Origin: Klebsiella phage NU-KP11 | Length of the DNA stretch: 64,000 bases | Sequence record: OR644643.1 | Strand: one strand, 5' to 3' | In this document: in pieces, positions 35,254 to 58,956 of the stretch | Layout of the letters: each line of letters starts with the position of its first letter | How positions within the stretch are numbered: the stretch's first letter is position 1 | Translations under genes and position numbers: made by a program | Notes under the pieces: generated by a model | The model's database searches: none | What the model was told of the DNA's origin: nothing | The model's input: only the letters and a program-made list of their open reading frames with translations

Positions 35254-35258
35254 TAAAA

Positions 35259-35786
35259 TTATATCTCAGTAATGATCCCAGAAATGGTTACACCTACGTT
35301 ACCATTAAGAAAACCATACCAATCTTTACTCATCGCGTCATAGTTTCTGAATCCATCACGCATATAACTTGATATCCTGAAATCAAAAGTCCATTGTTGA
35401 TTGTTATCTACACGGGTAAACAAAATGCGTACATTTCGATTTGGCCCGTCATAGATTGTTAAGTTAGAATAGTTTTCTGCTGAATCGCCGATAGCGCCAA
35501 TAGTACCAATCTGCTTACCATTATAATCACCAACGATAGTATAAGCAGAGTCAGAAATGTTGTACCATACACCAGTATCAGCACCCTTACGCCAAACACC
35601 ACGCCAACGAGTGTTGTTATACCAACGTTCCTGGGGAACAAAAGTAAAATGCCATTTGCTACGCCCAATTAATTGAGACATATAAAATGGTGTTCCAAGT
35701 CGAACTACGGCAGCAGCTTGAATCATGGATCGTTGTCCAGTTTCATTAACCGCCGAACTTCCAACTAGTGGGCCGGAAATAGCCAT
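35259..35786 (-). CDS. 38: gp38 tail-fibre tip adhesin, T2-type N-terminal gp37-attachment domain with divergent C-terminal domain
   Basis: 175 aa. N-terminus MAISGPLVGSSAVNETGQRSMIQAAAVVRLGTPFYMSQLIGRS matches T2-type gp38 (MAVVG.PGWIG.SAVNETGQRWMSQAA...RLG.P..MSQ.AGRS). The C-terminal 130 aa lack the Gly-rich motifs. Position 37-38-t as in T-even phages. RBS ggaggttaactaatg. Confidence 0.75.
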   Translation of the reverse strand: MAISGPLVGSSAVNETGQRSMIQAAAVVRLGTPFYMSQLIGRSKWHFTFVPQERWYNNTRWRGVWRKGADTGVWYNISDSAYTIVGDYNGKQIGTIGAIGDSAENYSNLTIYDGPNRNVRILFTRVDNNQQWTFDFRISSYMRDGFRNYDAMSKDWYGFLNGNVGVTISGIITEI

Positions 35787-35802
35787 TAGTTAACCTCCGA
35801 AA

Positions 35803-35819
35803 AGGGGCCGAAGCCCCTT
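35803..35819 (-). terminator. hairpin between genes 37 and 38 (attenuator-like)
   Basis: aaggggcttcggcccctt on the minus strand, directly upstream of the gp38 RBS. Confidence 0.45.
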
Positions 35820-38800
35820 AATTAAGTTTTCTTTCAAGTTCATTAACTTTAGCAGTTAACTTGTTGACCTGATCTACCAGAACCGCAACAATCGCATTAT
35901 AGTTCAAGCGAATATGTTCAGGATCTGAATCATCAACAGCAGTAGGAAGGCTTTCCTGAACTTCCTGAGCAATAAGCCCCGTTGATTTAGTCCATGCGTC
36001 ATCTGCTGTAGGATCTCGAACTTCGTAATGATAAGCTGACATTTTGCTCAAAATTTCTTCGGAGCTTTCAACTTTAGTGATATTACGTTTATGTCGTTTA
36101 TCGGAAGTTATATAAACATCCTGTGCGTACAACGTACCGTTACACGACATATCACCATTATTACGGAATTCGAACCAACCGTTACTGTTAGCCCCAAACA
36201 CATGAAGCATATGGAAATGACGTTCGCCTACACGTTCAACAAATATATTCTCAGAACCGAGGTCGGTTCCTTGCATAAGATGTCTTACGCCACGAACTTC
36301 ACGAACCCAGCGGTTTCCTGCGTTGGCATCCTGATACGCGCGTGTACCTGCGCAATCAATAGAACCTTTGTTGTAGAAGTTAGCTTTGTTCCTGTCTTCG
36401 TTGTTTTCGCCAGTACCACCGTTGTTAACACCAACGTTCAGTTCGCCTTGCTGAATGATAAAGTAGTTACCAGTGTTCCATATAACGTTTTTACCGTTTA
36501 TATTACTAAACCCGATATTACCAGCAGCATCAGCAAACAAAATACCACGATTTGTATTACCGTCCGTATGCCTAAAGTTAATAGACGCCCAGGCGTTATT
36601 ATCACTCGTTGGCTGAATAATCGGAGAACCTTTAACACGAAGACCTGTTGTCAGTTCCGCATGGTTTGCTCGAAACATTCCATTTGTATGAAATTCAAAC
36701 CATCCAGTATTATCTCCTGCTGTTGATTGTAATCCAATGAATGCGCTATTTCCTACACGTTCTGTAAATCGCAGAGTTCCTAAATTAGAACCAGCACCAA
36801 ACATCGTAATGCCGTCGGTTTCGTTGACAGTAACAGAACCTTCTGTATACGTCCTGATCCCCCGTTTCTCGATTGGCCCTACATTATTAACCGTTAATGT
36901 GTTGTTTAATGTAGTAGCACCAGAAACAGTTAACGTACCAGTAGCAGACATATTTCCGTTTGCACTGATATTACCATTAACTATCATGTTACCACTAGAA
37001 TCAATCCTTGTTTCGTTTGTGCTGGATGTATCTCCTTGAGGACGTAGATAAATCGTTTGTCCAGCTTTAGCAGAAATAATCAACGCACCGCCGTTATTAG
37101 CCCTGATTTTAGCCCCTTGTGCATACTCGATCGCGGTATCACCACCACTTCCAGCGGTAGCAGTTACTTTGATCAAGTTGTTGGTTTGAGTTGGGCCACC
37201 AGGACGCAATTCAACAGCACGACCACCACCAGAACTACCAATAATCACGCGACCATCAGTACTTTCTAACAGAGCACTACCACTACCGATCACAACACCT
37301 TTATCAGTGTACTTCGTGGAAGAAGCACCACCTAACCCTAAGTTGCCACCTACGCGAGCGTTGTTAGCAACAATCAGATCATTTCCGCTGTTCAGGTTTC
37401 CTGTAGTCGTGGTAACAGATTTAAATGATACATCGTCATCGTTTCCGCTAATGACGTTCATTCTCCACGGTGTCCATGCTTTAGCAGTACCGCTAACAGT
37501 GAACCAACGTTCCCAACTGCGTTTATTGTCCGATGCGCGTAATACTTGACGGTTAGTGTAATCTGTATCGCTTACTTTACGGAGACATTCAACAATAACA
37601 ATAAAGTTACCACCGACGCCAGAAGGTTTATTGGTGATGTTATCACCGCCACCCATACTACGGCACGAATAAACTTTAACAGTACCCGGTTCGGTATAGT
37701 TCAATGTTAAAGCATCAAGATCCTGAGTTACCCCAGTCAAATCATACGCAGCAACAGGGCCAGTAAATCCACCAGTTGAATTAACCACACCAGCAACGTT
37801 AATATCACGCCCGAAGTTAACTACCCATCTGTTTATTGTATCCGAAGACAACAGCCATGCGTTTTGTGTCTGGTTTTCTGCTTCACCGTAACGAATATCA
37901 CCGTTTACATCAATACCCAAACGTTTCATGTTCATACCGGAAAGTTTGAACCCGATAGACAAGTTCGAGTTAGTCGGTCTATTCAGTAACAGCGGAGTGT
38001 GCTGCGAACCACTAATAGAAACGGTTTGTTCGGTTGTAGTTGAACTTGTGTTATTAAAGTTCGCATAGGATGTATTAACAGTTCGACCGTTAAATGCACC
38101 ATATGTGATGTTAATATTACCCGGTGATGTAAATGTACCGTCAGATTTAAAAGAGAATTCTCCACCTGTCGTTCCACCACTCGTTCTGGCACGAATGCGA
38201 ACTTCACCAGAAGAGGCAGTGTTAGGCAACGCCCACACAGCACCACTTTCAACCCCTTTATACTTAAACCAAATTACGGAGTTTCCGCTCTCAGCATTCA
38301 AATGAAAACCAGGTGATGTTTTCGAGATCGTTAGATCACCAGACATCGTATCACCAACACGTGCAACAGCCCCTACGTCATCAGGAGTCGGTTTAAATGC
38401 AGTACCGTACAGTTCCTGGAAGTTGATTCTTCCTGTATCTGAGTTTAAGTTAGCATCATTAGTTGCACCAACTTTAACGCGACCAGTATTCCAATCAACT
38501 GAGATCACCGCATGAACATCTGATACAGAACTATAAAAACTTGCGCCCATACCATAGTTAATTTCAGTACCAAGCGTATTTCGCATGAACTGAGAACCAT
38601 CAGTACGCAGTTGTTTCAGATAGTCGCGAGCGTTAGAAACGGTGTATGATGTACCCTTACCGCCTAAACCGTAAGCACCAACAAGCATTACTTGTCCGGA
38701 ACCTGTACCAACATCACGGGTTGCAGCAGTACCCAAACCTAAGTTTGTGCGAGCAGCAGCCGCTGTACTTGCGCCTGTACCACCTTTAGCAACAGACAGA

Positions 38801-40020
38801 ATACCATCAGTACCATCGTCAAGGTTAGGTTTGTTCATTTCGTCATAGATACGAATAACCGTACTCTCAACTAACCCTTCCGGAGCAGTTGCAGAGATTG
38901 TGTAACCAGTAGGCAGATAATATTCAGTAGCAGCACCGCCAGCGATAGACAGCAGAGCAACTTTAACACCACCAATGAATGCGCGTTGAGTAAACCACAG
39001 TTCTAAACCTTCGGAGGTACGAACCAGGCTATAACGCATCTGGTTAGTATAATCAATTGCAGTATCTCCTAAACGTCGAACTTGCAGGTAAGAACGAACG
39101 TTACCGCTTGTTAATGTCGATGGAATGCTTCGAGCGCTACAATCGATAAAGTCAATAGAACTGCGCGTATTGCCATAGTTACCGCCGTTAGTCACCATCA
39201 GTTGCAAGCGACTCTGACCTGAGCCAGGATCTTTTAACAGAGCAACTTTAATCCAACGAGTTTCGTTACCTGTAGTTACAGGGAAATTATCTTGCTCAAG
39301 TTGACGCGCGTTTTCAACCCGCCCGATCCCCAGTTCGGTTAAAGTCGGTTTACGACCGTCCCAGTATACAGGTTTTGCTTGAAACAGCAATTCACCGCCA
39401 TCAGTGATCGTTAACTGATTTGTTGCACCGCCAGCCGTGTTACGCATATAGATATCAGCACCACCAGCGCCGAAATATGCTTTGTTTTTTGAAATAAAAG
39501 CAGAACCACCACCGCCCATAGCTTCATCAATATAGATGTTACCTGGTACGCGAGTGTTACCACCGGAATCAATAAGTTTCAGAGTACGGCGAACAGTATC
39601 ACCAGAACCACGGGAAACGAAACGGATCTCTTCATCACCGTCATCAATTGTACCGATTTCTAAAAACCCTTTATTACTCTCACCACCAGAACCAATGTAC
39701 CAACCATCGTTAAGAGCGTTTCTACCAGTGATATGACGAACCACACCCCCGCTCAAATCCGCGTTGCTGAAAGTAATAGTTTTACCTTCCGCTACGGTAA
39801 CGGTATCATTAAGAGCACTAGGCCCATCAACTGTTAATTTTTTGGTATTTGTTTCTGGGATACCTTTACCCGCTAACTGAACGATCGAAGAACCATTTTT
39901 CGTGTAAATGGCATAATCAGCCATGTTGATCGCCAGTTCACCATCTGCAAGCTGACTTGTAGTAGGTGTTTTCCCCGCAACTGTGCTACGTAGGAATTGA
40001 ATTTTTGCTAAATCAGCCAT
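35818..40020 (-). CDS. 37: long tail fibre distal subunit gp37 with C-terminal intramolecular chaperone (peptidase S74) domain
   Basis: 1400 aa. The N-terminus MADLAKIQFLRSTVAGKTPTTSQLADGELAIN matches T4 gp37. The C-terminus ...TSDKRHKRNITKVESSEEILSKMSAYHYEVRDP...TGLIAQEVQESLPTAV...LNYNAIVAVLVDQVNKLTAKVNELE is a typical S74 autoproteolytic chaperone module. Confidence 0.88.
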   Translation of the reverse strand: MADLAKIQFLRSTVAGKTPTTSQLADGELAINMADYAIYTKNGSSIVQLAGKGIPETNTKKLTVDGPSALNDTVTVAEGKTITFSNADLSGGVVRHITGRNALNDGWYIGSGGESNKGFLEIGTIDDGDEEIRFVSRGSGDTVRRTLKLIDSGGNTRVPGNIYIDEAMGGGGSAFISKNKAYFGAGGADIYMRNTAGGATNQLTITDGGELLFQAKPVYWDGRKPTLTELGIGRVENARQLEQDNFPVTTGNETRWIKVALLKDPGSGQSRLQLMVTNGGNYGNTRSSIDFIDCSARSIPSTLTSGNVRSYLQVRRLGDTAIDYTNQMRYSLVRTSEGLELWFTQRAFIGGVKVALLSIAGGAATEYYLPTGYTISATAPEGLVESTVIRIYDEMNKPNLDDGTDGILSVAKGGTGASTAAAARTNLGLGTAATRDVGTGSGQVMLVGAYGLGGKGTSYTVSNARDYLKQLRTDGSQFMRNTLGTEINYGMGASFYSSVSDVHAVISVDWNTGRVKVGATNDANLNSDTGRINFQELYGTAFKPTPDDVGAVARVGDTMSGDLTISKTSPGFHLNAESGNSVIWFKYKGVESGAVWALPNTASSGEVRIRARTSGGTTGGEFSFKSDGTFTSPGNINITYGAFNGRTVNTSYANFNNTSSTTTEQTVSISGSQHTPLLLNRPTNSNLSIGFKLSGMNMKRLGIDVNGDIRYGEAENQTQNAWLLSSDTINRWVVNFGRDINVAGVVNSTGGFTGPVAAYDLTGVTQDLDALTLNYTEPGTVKVYSCRSMGGGDNITNKPSGVGGNFIVIVECLRKVSDTDYTNRQVLRASDNKRSWERWFTVSGTAKAWTPWRMNVISGNDDDVSFKSVTTTTGNLNSGNDLIVANNARVGGNLGLGGASSTKYTDKGVVIGSGSALLESTDGRVIIGSSGGGRAVELRPGGPTQTNNLIKVTATAGSGGDTAIEYAQGAKIRANNGGALIISAKAGQTIYLRPQGDTSSTNETRIDSSGNMIVNGNISANGNMSATGTLTVSGATTLNNTLTVNNVGPIEKRGIRTYTEGSVTVNETDGITMFGAGSNLGTLRFTERVGNSAFIGLQSTAGDNTGWFEFHTNGMFRANHAELTTGLRVKGSPIIQPTSDNNAWASINFRHTDGNTNRGILFADAAGNIGFSNINGKNVIWNTGNYFIIQQGELNVGVNNGGTGENNEDRNKANFYNKGSIDCAGTRAYQDANAGNRWVREVRGVRHLMQGTDLGSENIFVERVGERHFHMLHVFGANSNGWFEFRNNGDMSCNGTLYAQDVYITSDKRHKRNITKVESSEEILSKMSAYHYEVRDPTADDAWTKSTGLIAQEVQESLPTAVDDSDPEHIRLNYNAIVAVLVDQVNKLTAKVNELERKLN

Positions 40021-48000: not shown

Positions 48001-48492
48001 TCAAGCAATATTTTTAATTTCTATCGAATTTTTAGCGAATTCGATCATACGTTGATTATCTGAACCGCGAAACGGCTTTTTAGTTGGTAAATCTTTTTCA
48101 TACTTACCATCAATCAGAACATCAATGTAAGGAAGTAGCTTAGAACGTTCTGGGTCGGCCTGTAAAGCCTCCAGGGTATATCCTGTCCATAACCATACGT
48201 TTTTCTTTGGAAGTTCCTTAGAAACGCGCTCAAGCAGTTTTAGGATAGTAGGATAGTTGTCACGGTAAAGCGGATCGCCGCCAGTTAATGTAAGTCCATC
48301 AACATGCGGATTACTCAACAGAGAAATCAGATGATTTTCTGTCTCTTCCGTGTACGGTGTTCCGTTGCAAGGGTTCCACGTCGATTTGTTATAGCAACCT
48401 TCGCATTTATGATTGCATCCAGTCACAAACAAAACAACACGGATCCCTTTTCCGTTGACCACATCCATATTATAGATGCGGTCGTAATTCAT
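48001..48492 (-). CDS. nrdG: anaerobic ribonucleotide reductase activating protein NrdG (radical SAM)
   Basis: 163 aa. Cluster GCNHKCEGCYN (CxxxCxxC) near the N-terminus. Confidence 0.85.
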   Translation of the reverse strand: MNYDRIYNMDVVNGKGIRVVLFVTGCNHKCEGCYNKSTWNPCNGTPYTEETENHLISLLSNPHVDGLTLTGGDPLYRDNYPTILKLLERVSKELPKKNVWLWTGYTLEALQADPERSKLLPYIDVLIDGKYEKDLPTKKPFRGSDNQRMIEFAKNSIEIKNIA

Positions 48493-49016
48493 GCTTTTTC
48501 ACCAAACAGACGTTCTCTGATCGCTTCGTCAATAATGTCTGGGAACTGAGTGTTAACCCGTTGCATTACTGCTTTGCGTACAGTAACTTCCAGGTTATTC
48601 GAGACGCGAGCGATAAACGCGGCTTCGTCTGCAATAATGTTTTCTGTTGCATGAGCAATCGCCTCTTTCTCGATATCTTTAAGAATGGTTTGGCATTGCT
48701 GTTTTACCGATTCTTTGATTTTACCAGACAGTTCGCGAATATTGCCATAGTTGACATCGAAAACATTCGAATAACCATAACGTTTTTCGACGTAATCCGA
48801 GAATTCAGATTTGATGATCTGTGTAATTTCGGATGAGTTCGGCATTAGAACAGCTAACTGTTCCTGGATCCGTTTGTTGATTTCTTCGCTAACACGCTTA
48901 CCAACTACGCTATTCACCACGTTTTTGATGATAGCAGATTGGAGATCTACGCGGGCGGTTGAACCTTCCGGAAACAGGCTTAACACCGCATTTGTGTCTA
49001 ATTTCAGTTGAATCAT
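48489..49016 (-). CDS. hypothetical protein (175 aa)
   Basis: ORF with an ATGA overlap. Confidence 0.5.
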   Translation of the reverse strand: MIQLKLDTNAVLSLFPEGSTARVDLQSAIIKNVVNSVVGKRVSEEINKRIQEQLAVLMPNSSEITQIIKSEFSDYVEKRYGYSNVFDVNYGNIRELSGKIKESVKQQCQTILKDIEKEAIAHATENIIADEAAFIARVSNNLEVTVRKAVMQRVNTQFPDIIDEAIRERLFGEKA

Positions 49017-49228
49017 TTCATGTTACCTTTCTTCACGAGGATCAGTTCTTTGATCCGTTCAACAATAACGATGTATTCCCATTTAGCTAACTTTTGGGTA
49101 TCACACCACTTTTGAAACTCTTTCATAGCCTCTAAGTGACCTTTACTCCAGTACATTTCTGCAATTTCGTTGCAAAGAGTTTCAGTAGCAGTGTTTTTGA
49201 TTTTCATAACATCCTCCTTAGTTGACAA
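49013..49228 (-). CDS. hypothetical protein (71 aa)
   Basis: ORF with an RBS aaggagga. Confidence 0.45.
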   Translation of the reverse strand: MSTKEDVMKIKNTATETLCNEIAEMYWSKGHLEAMKEFQKWCDTQKLAKWEYIVIVERIKELILVKKGNMK

Positions 49229-49267
49229 GAAGGATGTTACTACATTCAGATATACAGGTCAATACTT

Positions 49268-49519
49268 TTATGGATAATATTGAATGAAAAATGAAGGATG
49301 TCCTTCATAGTTCACATCAACAGCACCAATTTTAACGATTGCATCGCGGCGGGTAGCCTCTTCGACAATCTGATCGGTTAGGCTTACAATCTCACCGGAT
49401 ACCCAATGCAATTTGTGTTCCGGATCTGTAGCCCCACAGAAAAACAGTTCGATTTCGTTAGCTTCCAGTTCACAGCGTAGATAGTTCAAATTACGTGAAT
49501 TTGTTTTGTTGAAAATCAT
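49268..49519 (-). CDS. hypothetical protein (83 aa)
   Basis: ORF. Confidence 0.45.
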   Translation of the reverse strand: MIFNKTNSRNLNYLRCELEANEIELFFCGATDPEHKLHWVSGEIVSLTDQIVEEATRRDAIVKIGAVDVNYEGHPSFFIQYYP

Positions 49520-49528
49520 AATTTATAC

Positions 49529-50041
49529 CTATTTCAATAGTTTACCGCGTAGATAATCAGGAGCTTTTAAAATTTTCCCGTCGTCTACATACCCAACTTC
49601 AATTAAATCATCAATTAGATTGATAGATTCCCCAGATGCTGCATAGAATTGCAACCTTCTTTTCTTTACGATAGCCATATAAACATGATTATACGTAGGA
49701 GTCATTCTCTTAACAACACCAATCATACAGAGTCTGTTAAGGCATCCAGTATAAGATCGGCCCGTTGCTTTTGAGTAATCTTCCAGGCTTCCGCGTGGTA
49801 TAGCAGAAACAAGATCCTTGTAGTCTTTTCGTTTCCACGTCCGACCAACCGCACATTTTGTTACACCGTCAGCCATTTTAGAATTTGGGTGCTTCTCATC
49901 TTCACGCATCTTTTTATCTTCAAGAAATTTCTGAAATCGAATTTCTTCGAGATAGTCAATAGCGTTCTGAAAACGATTTTGTCTCTTCTCGCGTTCAACA
50001 ATACGGGAAGGAAATAACTTATCAAGGATCTTGCTAATCAT
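49529..50041 (-). CDS. hypothetical basic protein (170 aa)
   Basis: ORF. Confidence 0.45.
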   Translation of the reverse strand: MISKILDKLFPSRIVEREKRQNRFQNAIDYLEEIRFQKFLEDKKMREDEKHPNSKMADGVTKCAVGRTWKRKDYKDLVSAIPRGSLEDYSKATGRSYTGCLNRLCMIGVVKRMTPTYNHVYMAIVKKRRLQFYAASGESINLIDDLIEVGYVDDGKILKAPDYLRGKLLK

Positions 50042-50247
50042 TTTATATCATCCCGAATCGAATCAAGAACAATGTAATCTATCCCATTCACTCGTTTACC
50101 ACTGGGTTTACGATAGCGAATGTTACGGCCTTTCATATCAGTTGCTTTTGAAATGTAGAATGACTTTGTTTCACGTAGCCATTCACTCCATTCCTGATAT
50201 GAATTCCCGACATTTCGACGCACTTTAGCGTATAACGGAAACATCAC
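50038..50247 (-). CDS. hypothetical protein (69 aa)
   Basis: ORF with an ATGA overlap. Confidence 0.4.
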   Translation of the reverse strand: MMFPLYAKVRRNVGNSYQEWSEWLRETKSFYISKATDMKGRNIRYRKPSGKRVNGIDYIVLDSIRDDIK

Positions 50248-53965: not shown

Positions 53966-54817
53966 TTACATTAAGTCATCCAGTGTTTCAGGGTATGTAT
54001 TTACGTCGCGTTTCTGATAGTTGCACACGTAGACTTCTTGCGTTTTATTTTGTTCGTAAGAATCAGTATGCTGGCCTAACAGATACTTTTTATCGAGGTT
54101 ATGCACATTATATTTTTGCATCCACTCGATCAGGATATCATTTTGCTTTCCTGCATGATGTGTAACGTTTGATAAACCAAACTTGATACCATCAGAGTTT
54201 AAATTATCGAGAAAATCATATAATTCATGCTCTCGTTCTTCGTTCCAGAATTTGTTATAAACTGCATCAGTGATCAGGTACGGCGGATCGCAGTACACAA
54301 AATCATTCAAACAGATATCAAGATCCTTAAACGATGCGCTAGAGAATTCAATTCCCCGAACATTATTTTTGAAGTGTTCAAACCGTTTAACGGTAGAATC
54401 ATTCAATGTTCTACAACCAAAATTGGCGTTAAAATCGCCTTTATCGTTGGTTCGATTAACATTACTAAACGAATGCAGGATTAGAACATAGAGCCATAGC
54501 GGATCCTTGTTCTTATTATATGCATCACGAAATGTGAGATACGCTTCTTTCTCGTTCTTACCCAGACCATACTGTTTAATCAATTCTCGCACCGGAGAGA
54601 GGTCAGGAAGCATTTGAAGGCGCTTATACATATCAATCAACGTCCGATCGTAATCGTTGCTTAGAACGGGTTTAGGGACGTTTAGTGACACACTCAACCC
54701 ACCACAAAAACAGTCGATGAATCGCATATAGCTGTTTCTGTCTGGAAATAATTTGAACAGTTCAGGAAGTAGCTTTTGCTTGTTTCCTGTGTATGGGATC
54801 ACACCATAATAACTCAT
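53966..54817 (-). CDS. dam: Dam DNA N6-adenine methyltransferase (T4 Dam-like, DPPY)
   Basis: 283 aa. YTGNKQKLLPEL, FCGGLSVSLNV, motif IV YCDPPYLITDAVYNKFWNEE and KFGLSNV, collinear with T4 Dam. Confidence 0.92.
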   Translation of the reverse strand: MSYYGVIPYTGNKQKLLPELFKLFPDRNSYMRFIDCFCGGLSVSLNVPKPVLSNDYDRTLIDMYKRLQMLPDLSPVRELIKQYGLGKNEKEAYLTFRDAYNKNKDPLWLYVLILHSFSNVNRTNDKGDFNANFGCRTLNDSTVKRFEHFKNNVRGIEFSSASFKDLDICLNDFVYCDPPYLITDAVYNKFWNEEREHELYDFLDNLNSDGIKFGLSNVTHHAGKQNDILIEWMQKYNVHNLDKKYLLGQHTDSYEQNKTQEVYVCNYQKRDVNTYPETLDDLM

Positions 54818-55116
54818 AATTCACAAAGCCCTTTTTCAAATTTTGCAATGGTATCGTACTTGTAACCACGATTCACTATGAAGCATTGAGTTTCACCCAA
54901 TTTATTGATCATGTCAATAGCTCTTTGTTCGTCTTTCTTACCTCTTAATTGTAAGGCAATTCTTACGATCTCTTTTAGTGTTTCGTCGTTGACTTCTTCC
55001 AGTTTAAAGGAATACCCAGCGATTTTAGCAAAAAGCCCCTTGCGAGCTACAAGGGGCATGTTGTCATAGAAAATCACGGTTCCTTTGTCGTTTTTGCGGA
55101 TACTAAATCCCGGCAC
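54814..55116 (-). CDS. hypothetical protein (100 aa)
   Basis: ORF with an ATGA overlap. Confidence 0.45.
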   Translation of the reverse strand: MPGFSIRKNDKGTVIFYDNMPLVARKGLFAKIAGYSFKLEEVNDETLKEIVRIALQLRGKKDEQRAIDMINKLGETQCFIVNRGYKYDTIAKFEKGLCEL

Positions 55117-56536
55117 GGTTCCTAATTTCCTCTAAAGTGTCACGGGCAGTAATCTTTCCGTTGACATAGTATGTGATCATAGCATCTTTCCAGCCTTCCG
55201 GCACTTTCTGTTCCAGAGTATCAATGGTTTTAAAGTTAACACCATCAGTGATAGTCATCAACAACCCTTTTTTACTCTTTTTCCATTCAGCGCCTTTTGG
55301 ACATTTATACACACCAGTCCACACACCGTTAATTTTGATTGCGCACATTTTCATCGCATATTTTTGAGTGTCGCGGGTAACTTCTTGAAGCAATCCGCCG
55401 CCCATACCAAACGCGATGTTTTCAGACGCCCAACGGTTAGACTCCATCCAGTTCAACACCCGATTGATTGTTTCAGGGCCATGAATTTCATCGCCTTGAA
55501 TGATCCTTACTGCTGGGTGTAGTACTTTATACCCTTTTGAGTTCACTGTATAGCCAAAGATACGGCCCAGTTCTTCAAGAGCGTACATGATATTGTCTAC
55601 CATATCACCAGAATCCGGACGAACTACCAGAGTACCGCCCTTAGAAAGAATCGAATCTTTATATTCTGCGATACGGCGAACCGCCGCTTTAAAATCCCAG
55701 GAATCATACACACATGCATACATCCCTTCACCGAAGATCTCAATACTGTTTTTGTACGCAAGGTCTTCGTTTTCTTTGCCGTAAGAAACGGTAGTGGAAT
55801 GTTCGCGAGCAGGAATTGAAATACCAGCCGCCATTTCACCATCATCAAACGCTTTCTGACAATCTTCAAACAGAGAGATAGCCATAATCAGCGCTTCTAC
55901 GGTATCAGTACCGAGGAAGTTATACAGGTGCGCGAGGCCACCAATACCAGCGGATTCAGCAGAAGAGGTTCCACGTGCGCCGAAGTCATGCAAACGGGTA
56001 CGTAACACCATATCAAATGCTTCACCTTCGAGATCGGAGGTTTTCTTGAGATATTTCTTCAACACTTTTTTACATTCACGGGATAGAGTTGCTACGGTTG
56101 AAGGGAACCATACTCCCCTGATCGCCAGGGTTTCTACGTGTCCTGCTAACCACAGCGCATTTTTCCCAGCGTGGAAAGTTGCAACCGGATTTTTAACCGC
56201 TACTGGGGTTCCTTCCGGAATCGCTCTGAATTCAAGAGGGATGTAACCCAGTTCTGCAATTTCTTTCCAACCTTTGTAGTTGAAGATTTCGCGCCCAAAG
56301 TGCATTTTGTACAACCGATTAGCAAAATCCACGTTTTCCATAGTCACCGGACGTGATAGGATTTGCGCAAGGCGGTTACAGCCAGCCGTAACTACTTGAT
56401 CAAATTTACCACCACGAGATTCAATATAAAACAGCGCCTCTTCGGAGCCAGTTGGATATTGCGACCAGTGAGAAACCTTATAGGAATCTACGGAAGTGAT
56501 GATGCTGTTCAGTTCTTCGAAAGTTTTGTTGTTCAT
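55103..56536 (-). CDS. nadV: nicotinamide phosphoribosyltransferase NadV (NAMPT)
   Basis: 477 aa. N-terminal ...TSVDSYKVSHWSQYP, and internal FGARG and GGG motifs typical of the NAMPT family. Its size fits. Confidence 0.8.
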   Translation of the reverse strand: MNNKTFEELNSIITSVDSYKVSHWSQYPTGSEEALFYIESRGGKFDQVVTAGCNRLAQILSRPVTMENVDFANRLYKMHFGREIFNYKGWKEIAELGYIPLEFRAIPEGTPVAVKNPVATFHAGKNALWLAGHVETLAIRGVWFPSTVATLSRECKKVLKKYLKKTSDLEGEAFDMVLRTRLHDFGARGTSSAESAGIGGLAHLYNFLGTDTVEALIMAISLFEDCQKAFDDGEMAAGISIPAREHSTTVSYGKENEDLAYKNSIEIFGEGMYACVYDSWDFKAAVRRIAEYKDSILSKGGTLVVRPDSGDMVDNIMYALEELGRIFGYTVNSKGYKVLHPAVRIIQGDEIHGPETINRVLNWMESNRWASENIAFGMGGGLLQEVTRDTQKYAMKMCAIKINGVWTGVYKCPKGAEWKKSKKGLLMTITDGVNFKTIDTLEQKVPEGWKDAMITYYVNGKITARDTLEEIRNRAGI

Positions 56537-56563
56537 AAACGTACTCCACGTTTTAGGTTTATT

Positions 56564-57013
56564 TTAAAATACCCGATCCAGTCGTTCGGGATGGATTGTA
56601 TTGTGATATTTAGACTTACAATCCTTACTGGTTTTTCTGCCATTCGAACAGAAAACTTTGTGATACGTTGTCTTTGTGTGTTTTTCTTTGCACACAGGGC
56701 AAACAATCACAGAACCTATTTTAGCAGCCTTAGCCACTTCATACAAGTTCTTTACATCAATTTGTCTTTCTTTTGTGATAACCCGACCACGGAATTCAGC
56801 AACAACAGTTTCATCACGTACAGAACCATCACTATACTGAACTTTTTGTTTACTACTTTTTCGTTTGGATCCTGATATTTGAGAGGAACCCGATAAAAGT
56901 TTACGGAGTTCTAAACGGTCTTTATAAGCACCACGATTAACGCAGAAATATTCACCGTCTTCTTCGTCATCAAAATCAGCCCAATCTTCTAAAGCCTCAG
57001 CTTCATCGCTCAT
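56564..57013 (-). CDS. hypothetical protein with acidic N-terminus and C-terminal Cys cluster (149 aa)
   Basis: MSDEAEALEDWADFDDEEDGEY...CPVCKEKH...CSNGRK..C. Confidence 0.45.
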   Translation of the reverse strand: MSDEAEALEDWADFDDEEDGEYFCVNRGAYKDRLELRKLLSGSSQISGSKRKSSKQKVQYSDGSVRDETVVAEFRGRVITKERQIDVKNLYEVAKAAKIGSVIVCPVCKEKHTKTTYHKVFCSNGRKTSKDCKSKYHNTIHPERLDRVF

Positions 57014-57022
57014 AGTGGTTCC

Positions 57023-57283
57023 TTAGAAATAATCTTTGTTGCTCAACAGGTAAACCCGGTTATCGTTGTAGTCAATGTAAGCATCCCACCAACCAGCACA
57101 ATCAACACCATCAACTTCCAACGCCTGGATAAGAACGCTACCCGCTACGTTGTCGTATTCGTATATTGCATGTAATTCATCCAGCATTGCTTCAACATTG
57201 GCCCGTAAGCCTTTGCCGTTGTTAGCAACACCTTTTGCTTCCAGGCAGTATCCAGCATAAGTTGCTTTCATTACGATTTCCAT
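57023..57283 (-). CDS. hypothetical protein (86 aa)
   Basis: ORF. Confidence 0.45.
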   Translation of the reverse strand: MEIVMKATYAGYCLEAKGVANNGKGLRANVEAMLDELHAIYEYDNVAGSVLIQALEVDGVDCAGWWDAYIDYNDNRVYLLSNKDYF

Positions 57284-57360
57284 GATGTTTATCCTTCTGA
57301 GTTAGTGTCTTGTCTACGGGAGTTAGAATACTACTATAACCAACCCCCGTCAACACCTTT

Positions 57361-57867
57361 TTACCAACTAATGTAAAAAGTGAATTCACTTACACGGCGA
57401 TCCGTTTTCCTTTCAGAAAACACTTCACGTTCTTCATGGTTTCGATACGTTTGATTGTACTTACTAGCCAGAGAATTTGTAATCTTAGCGGCGTTGCGTT
57501 TTTCTTCTGTATCGAATTTTAGCCCTTCTTCTTCCAACCATTCAGAAACTCGTTGGAATGCATAGCGAGTACATTCAATACCCAGACAAGAGCCGATATC
57601 ATGCTTCATATCATAGATAAGGTTTTGTTTTGTCGCGTGTTTCAAAACACCTTTTGTGATTGTATCCCGCGCATGTTCGATCATCTTAGCATTCTGATCG
57701 TTGATAATTTCTCTTGCTCGTTCTGCGAGAGTGGGAGATCGGCCTTCTACCGGAGTTTCTCCGTCAGTACCGATACTACGTACATGAATCATATTTTCAC
57801 CTATTGCGTTATTAACAGCCCATCTTTCGTATGTTTCACGAAGTAAGGGCGCATGTTCAATTACCAT
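57361..57867 (-). CDS. hypothetical protein (168 aa)
   Basis: ORF. Confidence 0.45.
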   Translation of the reverse strand: MVIEHAPLLRETYERWAVNNAIGENMIHVRSIGTDGETPVEGRSPTLAERAREIINDQNAKMIEHARDTITKGVLKHATKQNLIYDMKHDIGSCLGIECTRYAFQRVSEWLEEEGLKFDTEEKRNAAKITNSLASKYNQTYRNHEEREVFSERKTDRRVSEFTFYISW

Positions 57868-58514
57868 AAAAAATCCAACGTTGGGGGTTTGATATTGATC
57901 CCTAACGTATCACACACATCGTTCAATACACTTTCTTTGAAGAGATTGAAACATGGAACCCTGTACAACCTAGCCAATCTTACAGCGATCGCGGTTCCAC
58001 CTTTAACACATCCTTCACGTTCTTCCGCCCAAAATAAAACAAAATCAGTTGGATTATCAAGATTTTCACGAAGAACTTGAATCGTGTTTCGCGCATACCT
58101 TCTTTGAACGTATTCATTCTGTGTATCGAAGTTACCTGCTACCTTTCTGGCTTCGTCAGCGGCTTTCTGTGTGTTTAAATCTTGAAAGTCGATGATATCC
58201 TTTCCGTTTGAGAAAAGGCCGTTAAAACCGTTCTCAGGAAGGATTATACACCTGTTATCCGGACTATAGTCAAACAGAAAGTGACTATCCATACCAGGAG
58301 CGCCGCCAGAATAAGCCCTGATCCCGCGTTCGTTCAAAGCACGTCCGATTTTAACAGCAATGTTTGCGATACGTTCAGGAGGTTTACGACTGCCAATTAA
58401 TGTTACTGTCTTGGCAGTTTTAATTACTGTACTAAAATCATTCGACATAAAAATTACCGAACAATTCTTTTGCTTTTTCGTTGTAAACTTCATAAGCCTT
58501 TTCAGGGTTATCAT
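57861..58514 (-). CDS. DprA/Smf-like Rossmann-fold protein (SLOG superfamily)
   Basis: TLIGSRKPP, YSGGAPGMDSHF and GGTAIAVRLA parallel the DprA motifs (AIVGSRK, SGGARGID..AH, SGSLITARLA). The start is either ATG 58514 or 58448. Confidence 0.55.
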   Translation of the reverse strand: MITLKRLMKFTTKKQKNCSVIFMSNDFSTVIKTAKTVTLIGSRKPPERIANIAVKIGRALNERGIRAYSGGAPGMDSHFLFDYSPDNRCIILPENGFNGLFSNGKDIIDFQDLNTQKAADEARKVAGNFDTQNEYVQRRYARNTIQVLRENLDNPTDFVLFWAEEREGCVKGGTAIAVRLARLYRVPCFNLFKESVLNDVCDTLGINIKPPTLDFLW

Positions 58515-58956
58515 ATGAACCTAGAAAAATCTGCTTACCATCAACAACTATTCGCGCTTGATAGTTATTTCTTCTTTTATCAAAAATAACCCCTCTTTTT
58601 CCAGAAGCATTGCTTCGTTTCTTTATCTGCTTTCTTATGTTCTCTTGTTGCGTTGCCTCTTGCAAATTATCTATACCATCACCAAATTCAACACCATTCT
58701 TATGGTCAACAAGAGCGGGAAGATACCCATTAGCAACATAAAAGATGATCCGATGTCTGCGATAATGTTTCTTTTGAAACTTTATAACACAATATCCATC
58801 TTTCATAGTACCAGCGGAATCACCAACCCTCCTACCTTGACGCGGAGAAGACCATACTATATTTCCGGAAGTAACATCAACTGAAACGTGTTGAAGAAGT
58901 TCTCTTATTCCGGCTATTTCATCAGAAATAGTTCTATAGTTTCCGTGACTGTTCAT
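58438..58956 (-). CDS. free-standing HNH homing endonuclease with AP2 DNA-binding domain
   Basis: HNH core HRIIFYVANGYLP..VDHKNG...DNL, and AP2-like SGKRGVIFDKRRNNYQARIVVDGKQIFLGSYDNPEKAYEVYNEKAKE. Confidence 0.75.
   Translation of the reverse strand: MNSHGNYRTISDEIAGIRELLQHVSVDVTSGNIVWSSPRQGRRVGDSAGTMKDGYCVIKFQKKHYRRHRIIFYVANGYLPALVDHKNGVEFGDGIDNLQEATQQENIRKQIKKRSNASGKRGVIFDKRRNNYQARIVVDGKQIFLGSYDNPEKAYEVYNEKAKELFGNFYVE

What the first reader, a model, noticed from the sequence alone, without database searches (positions are those of the whole stretch)
55103..56536. NadV (NAMPT) without an adjacent NMN adenylyltransferase partner
Phage NAD-salvage or NAD-reconstitution pathways that counter NAD-depleting defences normally pair Nampt with an Nmnat or Nudix bifunctional enzyme (NatV). 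Here NadV sits between dam and small unknown ORFs, and no (H/T)xGH nucleotidyltransferase motif is visible in any protein in the window. Either the partner is elsewhere, or one of the neighbouring unknowns (54814-55116, 56564-57013, 57361-57867) supplies a non-canonical activity.
Basis: partly seen in the sequence, partly recalled or inferred. Interest (0 to 1): 0.55.

Follow-up and report, generated by a model that had tools for sequence, protein, structure and literature searches.

The report
Phage NadV; NatV partner encoded elsewhere
The nicotinamide phosphoribosyltransferase gene is real, but its "missing" partner enzyme lies about 72 kb away in the same phage genome, outside the window, so this is an ordinary and already catalogued two-gene NAD-rebuilding pathway (NARP2).

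Summary
The window is a T4-like Klebsiella phage of the genus Slopekvirus (KP27/R2_1 type, 98-99% identical). The ORF at 55103-56536 (-) is an intact, full-length NAMPT/NadV with all the motifs I checked.

The puzzle dissolves at genome scale. KP27 encodes a canonical bifunctional NMN adenylyltransferase/Nudix enzyme (NatV, KP27_146, 353 aa; HYGH, SSTNLR and Nudix box present) at 75,408-76,469. That is about 72 kb from nadV and at least 44 kb outside the stretch the window covers. R2_1, the closest relative, has the same gene.

In this phage clade, NadV (178 records) and NatV (175 records) occur in near-equal numbers. Separation of the two genes is normal. They are about 48 kb apart in a KVP40-like Vibrio phage, 3.7 kb apart in Aeromonas phage 25 and adjacent in Sinorhizobium phage phiM7.

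Table S2 of the NARP paper already lists the KP27 and KP15 NadV as "Nmnat-associated". The neighbours show no NAD-related features and do not accompany nadV in the two other genera examined. Verdict: already known, low interest.

The parts
55103..56536 (-). nadV: nicotinamide phosphoribosyltransferase (Nampt), the first enzyme of the NARP2-type NAD+ reconstitution/salvage pathway
   Evidence: Pfam NAPRTase and NAMPT_N. NCBIfam PRK09198 at 463.7 bits, above the 405 cut-off. PDB NAMPT E 3e-104, full length. Motifs intact. 100% identical to NadV of several Klebsiella Slopekvirus phages and 49-53% identical to KVP40-like Vibrio phage NadV. KP27 and KP15 NadV are listed as 'Nmnat-associated' in Table S2 of 10.1101/2024.02.11.579819.
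54814..55116 (-). orf100: conserved small protein of unknown function. Its GTG start overlaps the nadV stop by 14 nt and its stop overlaps the dam start. Context only; no evidence that it belongs to the pathway.
   Evidence: ORF list. PHROG 7497, unknown function. 73% identical over its full length in Pseudotevenvirus IME-CF2, absent beside nadV in Aeromonas phage 25 and Vibrio phage D484. A terminator-like hairpin lies inside it at 55057-55035.
53966..54817 (-). dam: D12-class N6-adenine DNA methyltransferase (context)
   Evidence: Pfam MethyltransfD12, E 7.7e-35. Equivalent to KP27_267.
56564..57013 (-). orf149: small protein with a variable acidic N-terminus and an invariant C-terminal four-Cys zinc-ribbon-like module. 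Context only, not enzyme-like.
   Evidence: Alignment of 26 homologues with invariant C105, P106, C108, C122 and nearly invariant C132. No significant Pfam family in any member. PHROG 7424, unknown function.
57023..57283 (-). orf86: small protein of unknown function (context)
   Evidence: PHROG 7372, unknown function. No Pfam family. 67% identical in IME-CF2 only.
57361..57867 (-). orf168: orphan small protein. The conserved core starts near residue 26-40. Context only, with no enzyme-like features.
   Evidence: 12 hits among 1.84 billion representatives. Invariant residues are mostly structural in type: G92, W110, L111, E114, G115, S160, T163, W168. The AF2 core has pLDDT about 90. No PDB fold match better than E = 1.2.
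57861..58448 (-). DprA-like (SLOG-fold) protein (context)
   Evidence: PHROG 768, E 5.6e-61. Pfam DNA_processg_A at 26.2 bits, below the 29.6 cut-off. AF2 pLDDT 89.4. Foldseek hits DprA at E 3e-5, then Moco-carrier, ShosA and LOG proteins, with TM about 0.5.

Best explanation
nadV at 55103-56536 is the Nampt half of the known two-enzyme phage pathway NARP2, the KVP40-type NAD+ salvage route. NadV condenses nicotinamide with PRPP to give NMN. A bifunctional NatV (NadM-type NMN adenylyltransferase fused to a Nudix ADP-ribose pyrophosphatase) then adenylates NMN to NAD+. In this phage lineage natV is encoded about 72 kb from nadV, outside the window, next to the nrdC.11-type nucleotidyltransferase near rI and tk. 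The two genes are unlinked on the map but co-inherited. The pathway rebuilds NAD+ during infection. This supports phage nucleotide and DNA metabolism and blunts NAD+-depleting defences (Thoeris, DSR, SIR2-type).

Shown here: the identity of both enzymes, their motifs, their positions in complete genomes of close relatives, and the clade-wide co-occurrence counts.

Inferred: that the window's own genome carries natV (only relatives 98-99% identical to the window can be read in full), the enzyme activities, and the anti-defence role. The last two are demonstrated only for the KVP40 homologues in the cited paper.
For: Identity of the window: 99.2% to Klebsiella phage R2_1 and 98.7% to KP27 over 54000-58600. 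It is colinear with KP27 140,995-174,413 plus 1-30,633.

NadV is a NAMPT.

KP27_146 at 75,408-76,469 carries Pfam CTP_transf_like and NUDIX. It matches NCBIfam bifunctional NMNAT/Nudix models over its full length (E 1.7e-76). It also matches the solved NadM-Nudix structures 2qjo and 2qjt over its full length (E 6.9e-52 and 2.1e-43). Its motifs HYGH18, SSTNLR143 and the Nudix box at 243 are present.

R2_1 has the same gene, 99.4% identical with 100% coverage.

Co-occurrence counts among phage records: NadV at 60% identity or more in 178 records (108+1+2+67); NatV at 60% or more in 175 records (69+41+1+64).

Separation of the genes is common. In D484 natV is at 122,547-123,575 and nadV at 171,841-173,088. 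In IME-CF2 they are at 39,329 and 145,131. In Aeromonas phage 25 they are 3.7 kb apart. In phiM7 they are adjacent.

The NARP paper defines NARP2 by genome co-occurrence (94% of phages with a KVP40-type Nampt also encode Nmnat) and shows that the KVP40 pair overcomes Thoeris and DSR2. Its Table S2 lists KP27 and KP15 NadV as 'Nmnat-associated'.

No Adps/Prs homologue exists in KP27 or the window.
Against: The window's own complete genome is not available. No record in the phage collection is identical (best about 98.8% over 24.9 kb), so the presence of natV in this isolate is inferred from relatives.

KP27 NatV scores below NCBIfam's equivalog cut-offs (257.7 bits against 397), so it is a divergent member of the family.

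No activity or anti-defence phenotype has been measured for the Slopekvirus enzymes. The co-occurrence figures compare counts, not a record-by-record list, because the tool shows at most 60 rows.
Confidence: 0.9

Rival explanations
1. A neighbouring unknown protein (orf100, orf149, orf86, orf168 or the DprA-like protein) provides a non-canonical NMN adenylyltransferase or another NAD-related activity that partners NadV locally.
For: The neighbours are tightly packed with nadV on the same strand, and orf100 overlaps both nadV and dam. They are conserved together with nadV in Slopekvirus and Pseudotevenvirus. The DprA-like protein has a Rossmann-like SLOG fold of a kind that can bind nucleotides.
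Against: A canonical NatV exists elsewhere in the genome, so no local partner is needed. No neighbour matches any nucleotidyltransferase or NAD-related family in Pfam or PHROGs. orf168 has no fold match (best E = 1.2) and no conserved set of catalytic-type residues. orf149 is a zinc-ribbon protein. None of the neighbours is found beside nadV in Aeromonas phage 25 or Vibrio phage D484. Overlapping, tightly packed genes are the rule throughout these T4-like genomes.
Confidence: 0.02
2. NadV works as a NARP1-type Namat, joining nicotinamide to ADPR-pyrophosphate, rather than as a PRPP-using Nampt.
For: Namat and Nampt are homologous, and KVP40 Nampt can make some NAD+ from ADPR-PP in vitro.
Against: No Adps/Prs-like gene exists anywhere in KP27 or the window (tblastn with Klebsiella phage KB57 Adps finds nothing at E <= 1). 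The protein is 49-53% identical to NadV of KVP40-like Vibrio phages. The NARP authors place it in the 'Nmnat-associated' class. KVP40 Nampt prefers PRPP.
Confidence: 0.03
3. The pathway is chiefly a metabolic booster that supplies NAD+ for phage nucleotide and DNA metabolism, not a counter-defence device.
For: nadV is embedded in a nucleotide-metabolism block (RnlB, Dam, NrdC, endonuclease VII, NrdD, NrdG, NrdH). NARP2 raises NAD+ even in cells without a defence system.
Against: This rival concerns biological role only and is not mutually exclusive with the best explanation. The KVP40 pair abolishes Thoeris and DSR2 defence. No test has been done in Klebsiella.
Confidence: 0.3

Closest known systems
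NARP2 (NAD+ reconstitution pathway 2) of Vibrio phage KVP40: Nampt (NadV) plus bifunctional Nmnat/Nudix (NatV); Lee, Li & Miller 2017 as cited in, and Osterman et al., bioRxiv 10.1101/2024.02.11.579819
   Same: The same two enzyme families are present. NadV is 49-53% identical to that of KVP40-like Vibrio phages and NatV about 38-40%. The genes are unlinked in both lineages, about 48 kb apart in the KVP40-like phage D484. KP27 and KP15 NadV already appear as 'Nmnat-associated' in the paper's Table S2.
   Different: The host (Klebsiella) and genus (Slopekvirus) differ. The Slopekvirus enzymes have not been assayed themselves. The gene distance is about 72 kb in KP27.
NARP1 (Adps plus Namat)
   Same: Namat is a homologue of NadV, and both pathways end in NAD+.
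   Different: NARP1 needs an adjacent PRPS-like Adps gene, and none is present in KP27 or the window. Some other Klebsiella phages, such as KB57, do carry NARP1.
Aeromonas phage 25 / 44RR-type T4-like phages
   Same: nadV occupies the same slot upstream of gene 49 and nrdD. The natV and nrdC.11-type nucleotidyltransferase pair is conserved: 50% and 47% identity to KP27_146 and KP27_140.
   Different: In phage 25 the natV-nrdC.11 pair lies only 3.7 kb upstream of nadV. In KP27 the same pair lies about 72 kb away, near rI and tk. This suggests a rearrangement, whose direction I did not determine.

Membership tests
NAMPT / NadV (type II phosphoribosyltransferase, nicotinamide-specific) | Full-length NAMPT architecture: N-terminal NAMPT domain plus NAPRTase catalytic domain | tested here: met
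   Pfam NAMPT_N (79.4 bits, cut-off 25) and NAPRTase (141 bits, cut-off 20.8). NCBIfam PRK09198 at 463.7 bits against 405. Residues 8-475 align with solved NAMPT structures.
NAMPT / NadV (type II phosphoribosyltransferase, nicotinamide-specific) | Active-site motifs. From my own knowledge of human NAMPT, these are the equivalents of F193/R196, D219, H247, R311/D313, D354 and G383-G384. | tested here: met
   HDFGARG183, GTDT209, EHST245, RPDSG306, IQGD346 and GMGGGLLQ377 are present and aligned with the same motifs in 7yqo. The residue-to-function assignment is recalled, not tested.
NAMPT / NadV (type II phosphoribosyltransferase, nicotinamide-specific) | Catalyses nicotinamide + PRPP -> NMN | not testable with these tools
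   Shown only for KVP40 Nampt.
NARP2 | The same phage genome also encodes an Nmnat (NatV) homologue | tested here: met
   KP27_146 at 75,408-76,469. R2_1 at 143,856-144,914, 99.4% identical. Record counts are 178 for NadV and 175 for NatV in the clade. This is met in the closest complete relatives; the window's own genome beyond 64 kb cannot be read.
NARP2 | Nampt belongs to the KVP40-type, Nmnat-associated clade and not the Adps-associated Namat clade | tested here: met
   Table S2 labels the KP27 and KP15 proteins, which have the same N-terminal sequence, 'Nmnat-associated'. No Adps is present in KP27 or the window.
NARP2 | Restores NAD+ and overcomes NAD+-depleting defence systems | not testable with these tools
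   Demonstrated for the KVP40 genes only.
NadM-Nudix / NatV (the partner, outside the window) | N-terminal nucleotidyltransferase domain with HxGH and SSTxxR motifs, fused to a C-terminal Nudix domain with a Nudix box | tested here: met
   HYGH18, SSTNLR143 and GHKNGNETFLDCAIRELLEE at 243. Pfam CTP_transf_like and NUDIX are above their cut-offs. Full-length match to 2qjo. NCBIfam equivalog cut-offs are not reached (257.7 bits against 397), so it is a divergent member.
NARP1 | PRPS-like Adps gene next to the Namat gene | tested here: not met
   No Adps homologue at E <= 1 in the whole KP27 genome or the window. None is annotated.

The most novel reading that the evidence does not exclude
Some conserved neighbours could have a role of their own in the NAD or defence conflict. 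Examples are orf100, which overlaps nadV at its start and dam at its end, and the DprA-like SLOG protein, whose fold also resembles ShosA of the Shosta defence system and LOG phosphoribohydrolases. They might act as a NadV regulator, a nucleotide or signal binder, or an antitoxin mimic, which would make this block a small counter-defence island and not just a lone metabolic gene. Nothing found here supports this beyond fold resemblance and shared synteny in two sister genera.
Probability: 0.04. Interest if true: 0.5.

Novelty: already known. Interest (0 to 1): 0.07.

Why it matters
It matters little beyond correct annotation. The apparent anomaly of a lone NadV is an artefact of viewing 64 kb of a roughly 175 kb genome. 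The practical lesson is that NARP2 genes in T4-like phages are often unlinked, so the absence of an adjacent Nmnat within a window is not evidence for a non-canonical partner. Many deposited records of this clade label natV 'cytidyltransferase' or 'hypothetical protein' and nadV 'nicotinate phosphoribosyltransferase' or 'hypothetical protein'. Those labels hide the pathway and could be corrected.

Tried and rejected
1. Lee, Li & Miller 2017 (PMC5388814) is not held, so I could not read the KVP40 gene arrangement there. I read the spacing from a KVP40-like Vibrio phage (D484) instead.

2. I looked for the exact source record. None is identical; the best is about 98.8% over 24.9 kb.

3. I tested the neighbours for hidden enzymatic identity. 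Pfam, PHROGs, an exhaustive HMMER search, AF2 models and Foldseek gave nothing NAD-related.

4. I considered NadV as a NARP1 Namat and rejected it because no Adps is present and the published clade label is 'Nmnat-associated'.

5. I considered KP27_140 ('nucleotidyltransferase') as an alternative partner. It is an RlaP/nrdC.11-type Pol-beta-family protein, not an NMNAT. KP27_194 is a small stand-alone Nudix protein.

6. The literature search for Slopekvirus plus nicotinamide phosphoribosyl found no paper.

7. One search_dna_similar call was malformed (a protein sequence sent in DNA mode) and returned an error. Searches failed because locus files are bundled several to a FASTA file.

Full report
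WHAT THE WINDOW IS. The region 54000-58600 matches 165 phage records. It is 99.2% identical to Klebsiella phage R2_1 and 98.7% to KP27, a T4-like phage (Straboviridae, genus Slopekvirus). A local megablast shows the whole window is colinear with KP27. Window 1-30368 corresponds to KP27 30,633-1, and window 30369-64000 to KP27 174,413-140,995. The window therefore runs across the arbitrary ends of the KP27 record and covers about 64 kb of a 174 kb genome. No record is identical to the window; the best is about 98.8% over 24.9 kb.

THE OBSERVATION. The ORF at 55103-56536 on the minus strand encodes 477 aa.
- It has Pfam NAPRTase and NAMPT_N domains above threshold.
- It passes the NCBIfam PRK09198 cut-off, 463.7 bits against 405.
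- It matches PHROG 448.
- It aligns end to end with solved bacterial and human NAMPT structures, E 3e-104 and about 1e-87.
- The motifs HDFGARG, GTDT, EHST, RPDSG, IQGD and GMGGGLLQ are all present. From my own knowledge of human NAMPT they correspond to the PRPP and nicotinamide site and the phospho-histidine.

Downstream are a 100-aa ORF that overlaps the nadV stop, and then dam (Pfam MethyltransfD12). Upstream are four small ORFs without a Pfam family, plus a DprA-like gene, an HNH homing endonuclease, RNA ligase 2 and Srd.

The window contains no NMN adenylyltransferase. A tblastn with KP27 NatV gives a best E of 0.14. The only [HT]xGH in any frame of at least 60 aa is inside NrdD.

WHERE THE PARTNER IS. 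I read the annotation of the entire KP27 RefSeq record. KP27_146, labelled 'cytidyltransferase', lies at 75,408-76,469 and encodes 353 aa.
- It carries Pfam CTP_transf_like and NUDIX domains.
- It matches the NCBIfam models for 'bifunctional nicotinamide-nucleotide adenylyltransferase/Nudix' over its whole length. The best E is 1.7e-76, although the score is below the equivalog cut-offs.
- It matches the solved NadM-Nudix proteins 2qjo and 2qjt end to end, E 6.9e-52 and 2.1e-43.
- It has HYGH at residue 18, SSTNLR at 143 and a Nudix box at 243.

This is a canonical NatV. It lies about 72 kb from nadV (KP27 148,471-149,904) and at least 44 kb outside the part of the genome the window covers. 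R2_1, the closest relative, has the same gene at 143,856-144,914 (99.4% identity, full coverage), annotated only as 'hypothetical protein'.

Two other candidates in KP27 are not NMNATs. KP27_140 is an RlaP/nrdC.11-type nucleotidyltransferase, and KP27_194 is a small stand-alone Nudix protein. A tblastn with the Adps of Klebsiella phage KB57 finds nothing in KP27 or the window at E <= 1. A NARP1-type arrangement is therefore excluded.

CO-OCCURRENCE AND GENE SPACING. Among 50,697 phage records, NadV relatives at 60% identity or more occur in 178 records. NatV relatives at 60% or more occur in 175. Some records in this clade are partial genomes. The near-equal numbers fit one-to-one co-inheritance, though this compares counts and is not a record-by-record test.

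The distance between the two genes varies widely:
- adjacent in Sinorhizobium phage phiM7 (119,248-120,312 and 120,368-121,780);
- 3.7 kb apart in Aeromonas phage 25;
- about 48 kb apart in the KVP40-like Vibrio phage D484 (122,547-123,575 and 171,841-173,088);
- about 72 kb apart around the circular map in Citrobacter phage IME-CF2, as in KP27.

In phage 25, nadV sits upstream of gene 49 and nrdD, as it does here. The natV and nrdC.11 pair lies just beyond it. KP27 keeps the natV and nrdC.11 pair (50% and 47% identity) but in a different part of the map, near rI and tk. I infer that a rearrangement separated, or in phage 25 joined, two blocks. I did not determine the direction.

WHAT IS ALREADY PUBLISHED. 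The NARP paper (bioRxiv 10.1101/2024.02.11.579819) classifies Nampt homologues by whether 'the phage genome' also encodes Nmnat. It reports that 94% of phages with a KVP40-type Nampt do. It shows that the two KVP40 genes abolish type I Thoeris and DSR2 defence and raise NAD+, and it names the pair NARP2. Its supplementary table lists the NadV of KP27 (HQ918180_00239) and KP15 as 'Nmnat-associated'. The N-terminal sequence quoted there is the same as that of the window's protein. The finding is therefore already catalogued.

THE NEIGHBOURS. All four small ORFs fall into PHROGs of unknown function.
- orf149 (56564-57013) has 33 relatives, all in T4-like phages of enterobacteria and without a significant Pfam match. 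It consists of a variable acidic N-terminus and an invariant CPxC...C...C zinc-ribbon-like module.
- orf168 (57361-57867) is nearly an orphan, with 12 hits among 1.84 billion representatives. Its conserved residues are mostly structural in type. Its model has a confident core, and no solved structure resembles it better than E = 1.2.
- The DprA-like protein (57861-58448) gives a good model, pLDDT 89. The model resembles DprA, then Moco-carrier, ShosA and LOG proteins, that is the SLOG fold, at TM about 0.5. This is not an HxGH nucleotidyltransferase.
- All of these neighbours are conserved in the sister genus Pseudotevenvirus (IME-CF2). None is found next to nadV in Aeromonas phage 25 or Vibrio phage D484.

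The neighbours therefore travel with the local genome block, not with nadV.

VERDICT. The 'partner elsewhere' alternative is right. The 'non-canonical neighbour' alternative has no support. The gene is the Nampt half of a known, previously listed NARP2 pathway, so novelty is 'already known' and interest is low.

The remaining uncertainty is small. The source isolate's own natV cannot be seen. In addition, the activities and the counter-defence role are extrapolated from the KVP40 homologues.

Noticed in passing
window 55035-55057 (-): A strong terminator-like hairpin (9-bp stem, 6 G-C pairs, followed by TTTTTGC) lies 46 nt downstream of the nadV stop and inside the predicted 100-aa ORF 54814-55116. 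The ORF looks real, since it is 73% identical over its full length in IME-CF2. The hairpin may be an attenuator or an RNA-stability element between nadV and dam.
   Followed up: partly
window 58438-58956 (-): An HNH homing endonuclease (Pfam HNH_3 plus a weak AP2 match) lies between RNA ligase 2 and the DprA-like gene. It appears to be present in some relatives and absent in others. Several close relatives (R4_1, 150040, pR7_1, RCIP0009, 05F) stop aligning at about window 58,390. A 53%-identical paralogue sits elsewhere in KP27, at L002 34898-35416.
   Followed up: partly
window 57861-58448 (-): A DprA-like SLOG-fold protein with invariant GSR...YSGGAPGMD and GGT motifs. Fold hits include DprA, Moco-carrier proteins, ShosA of the Shosta defence system (8zva) and LOG phosphoribohydrolases. 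Its function in a lytic T4-like phage is unknown. An ssDNA-binding or nucleotide-binding role, or antitoxin mimicry, is speculation.
   Followed up: partly
window 48478-50043: The window departs from KP27 here. KP27's MobC homing endonuclease segment is replaced, and about 500 extra bases carry a 170-aa ORF (49529-50041). A 175-aa ORF (48489-49016) lies beside nrdG. Neither ORF has a Pfam family.
   Followed up: partly
window 35258-39636: The distal long-tail-fibre gene (ORF 35818-40020, 1400 aa) is the most divergent part of the window relative to KP27. It aligns only in part, at about 90% identity. This fits host-range variation among isolates.
   Followed up: no
KP27 NC_020080.1 75,408-76,469 and equivalents (L002 25408-26469): natV is annotated inconsistently across this clade, as 'cytidyltransferase', 'hypothetical protein' or, correctly, 'bifunctional NMN adenylyltransferase/Nudix hydrolase'. 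nadV is sometimes labelled 'nicotinate phosphoribosyltransferase' or 'hypothetical protein'. These labels hide the NARP2 pair.
   Followed up: yes
window 57361-57867 (-): The first 25 or so codons of orf168 are not covered by the PHROG profile or by the IME-CF2 homologue; both align from residue 26. The true start may therefore be the internal ATG near 57792.
   Followed up: no
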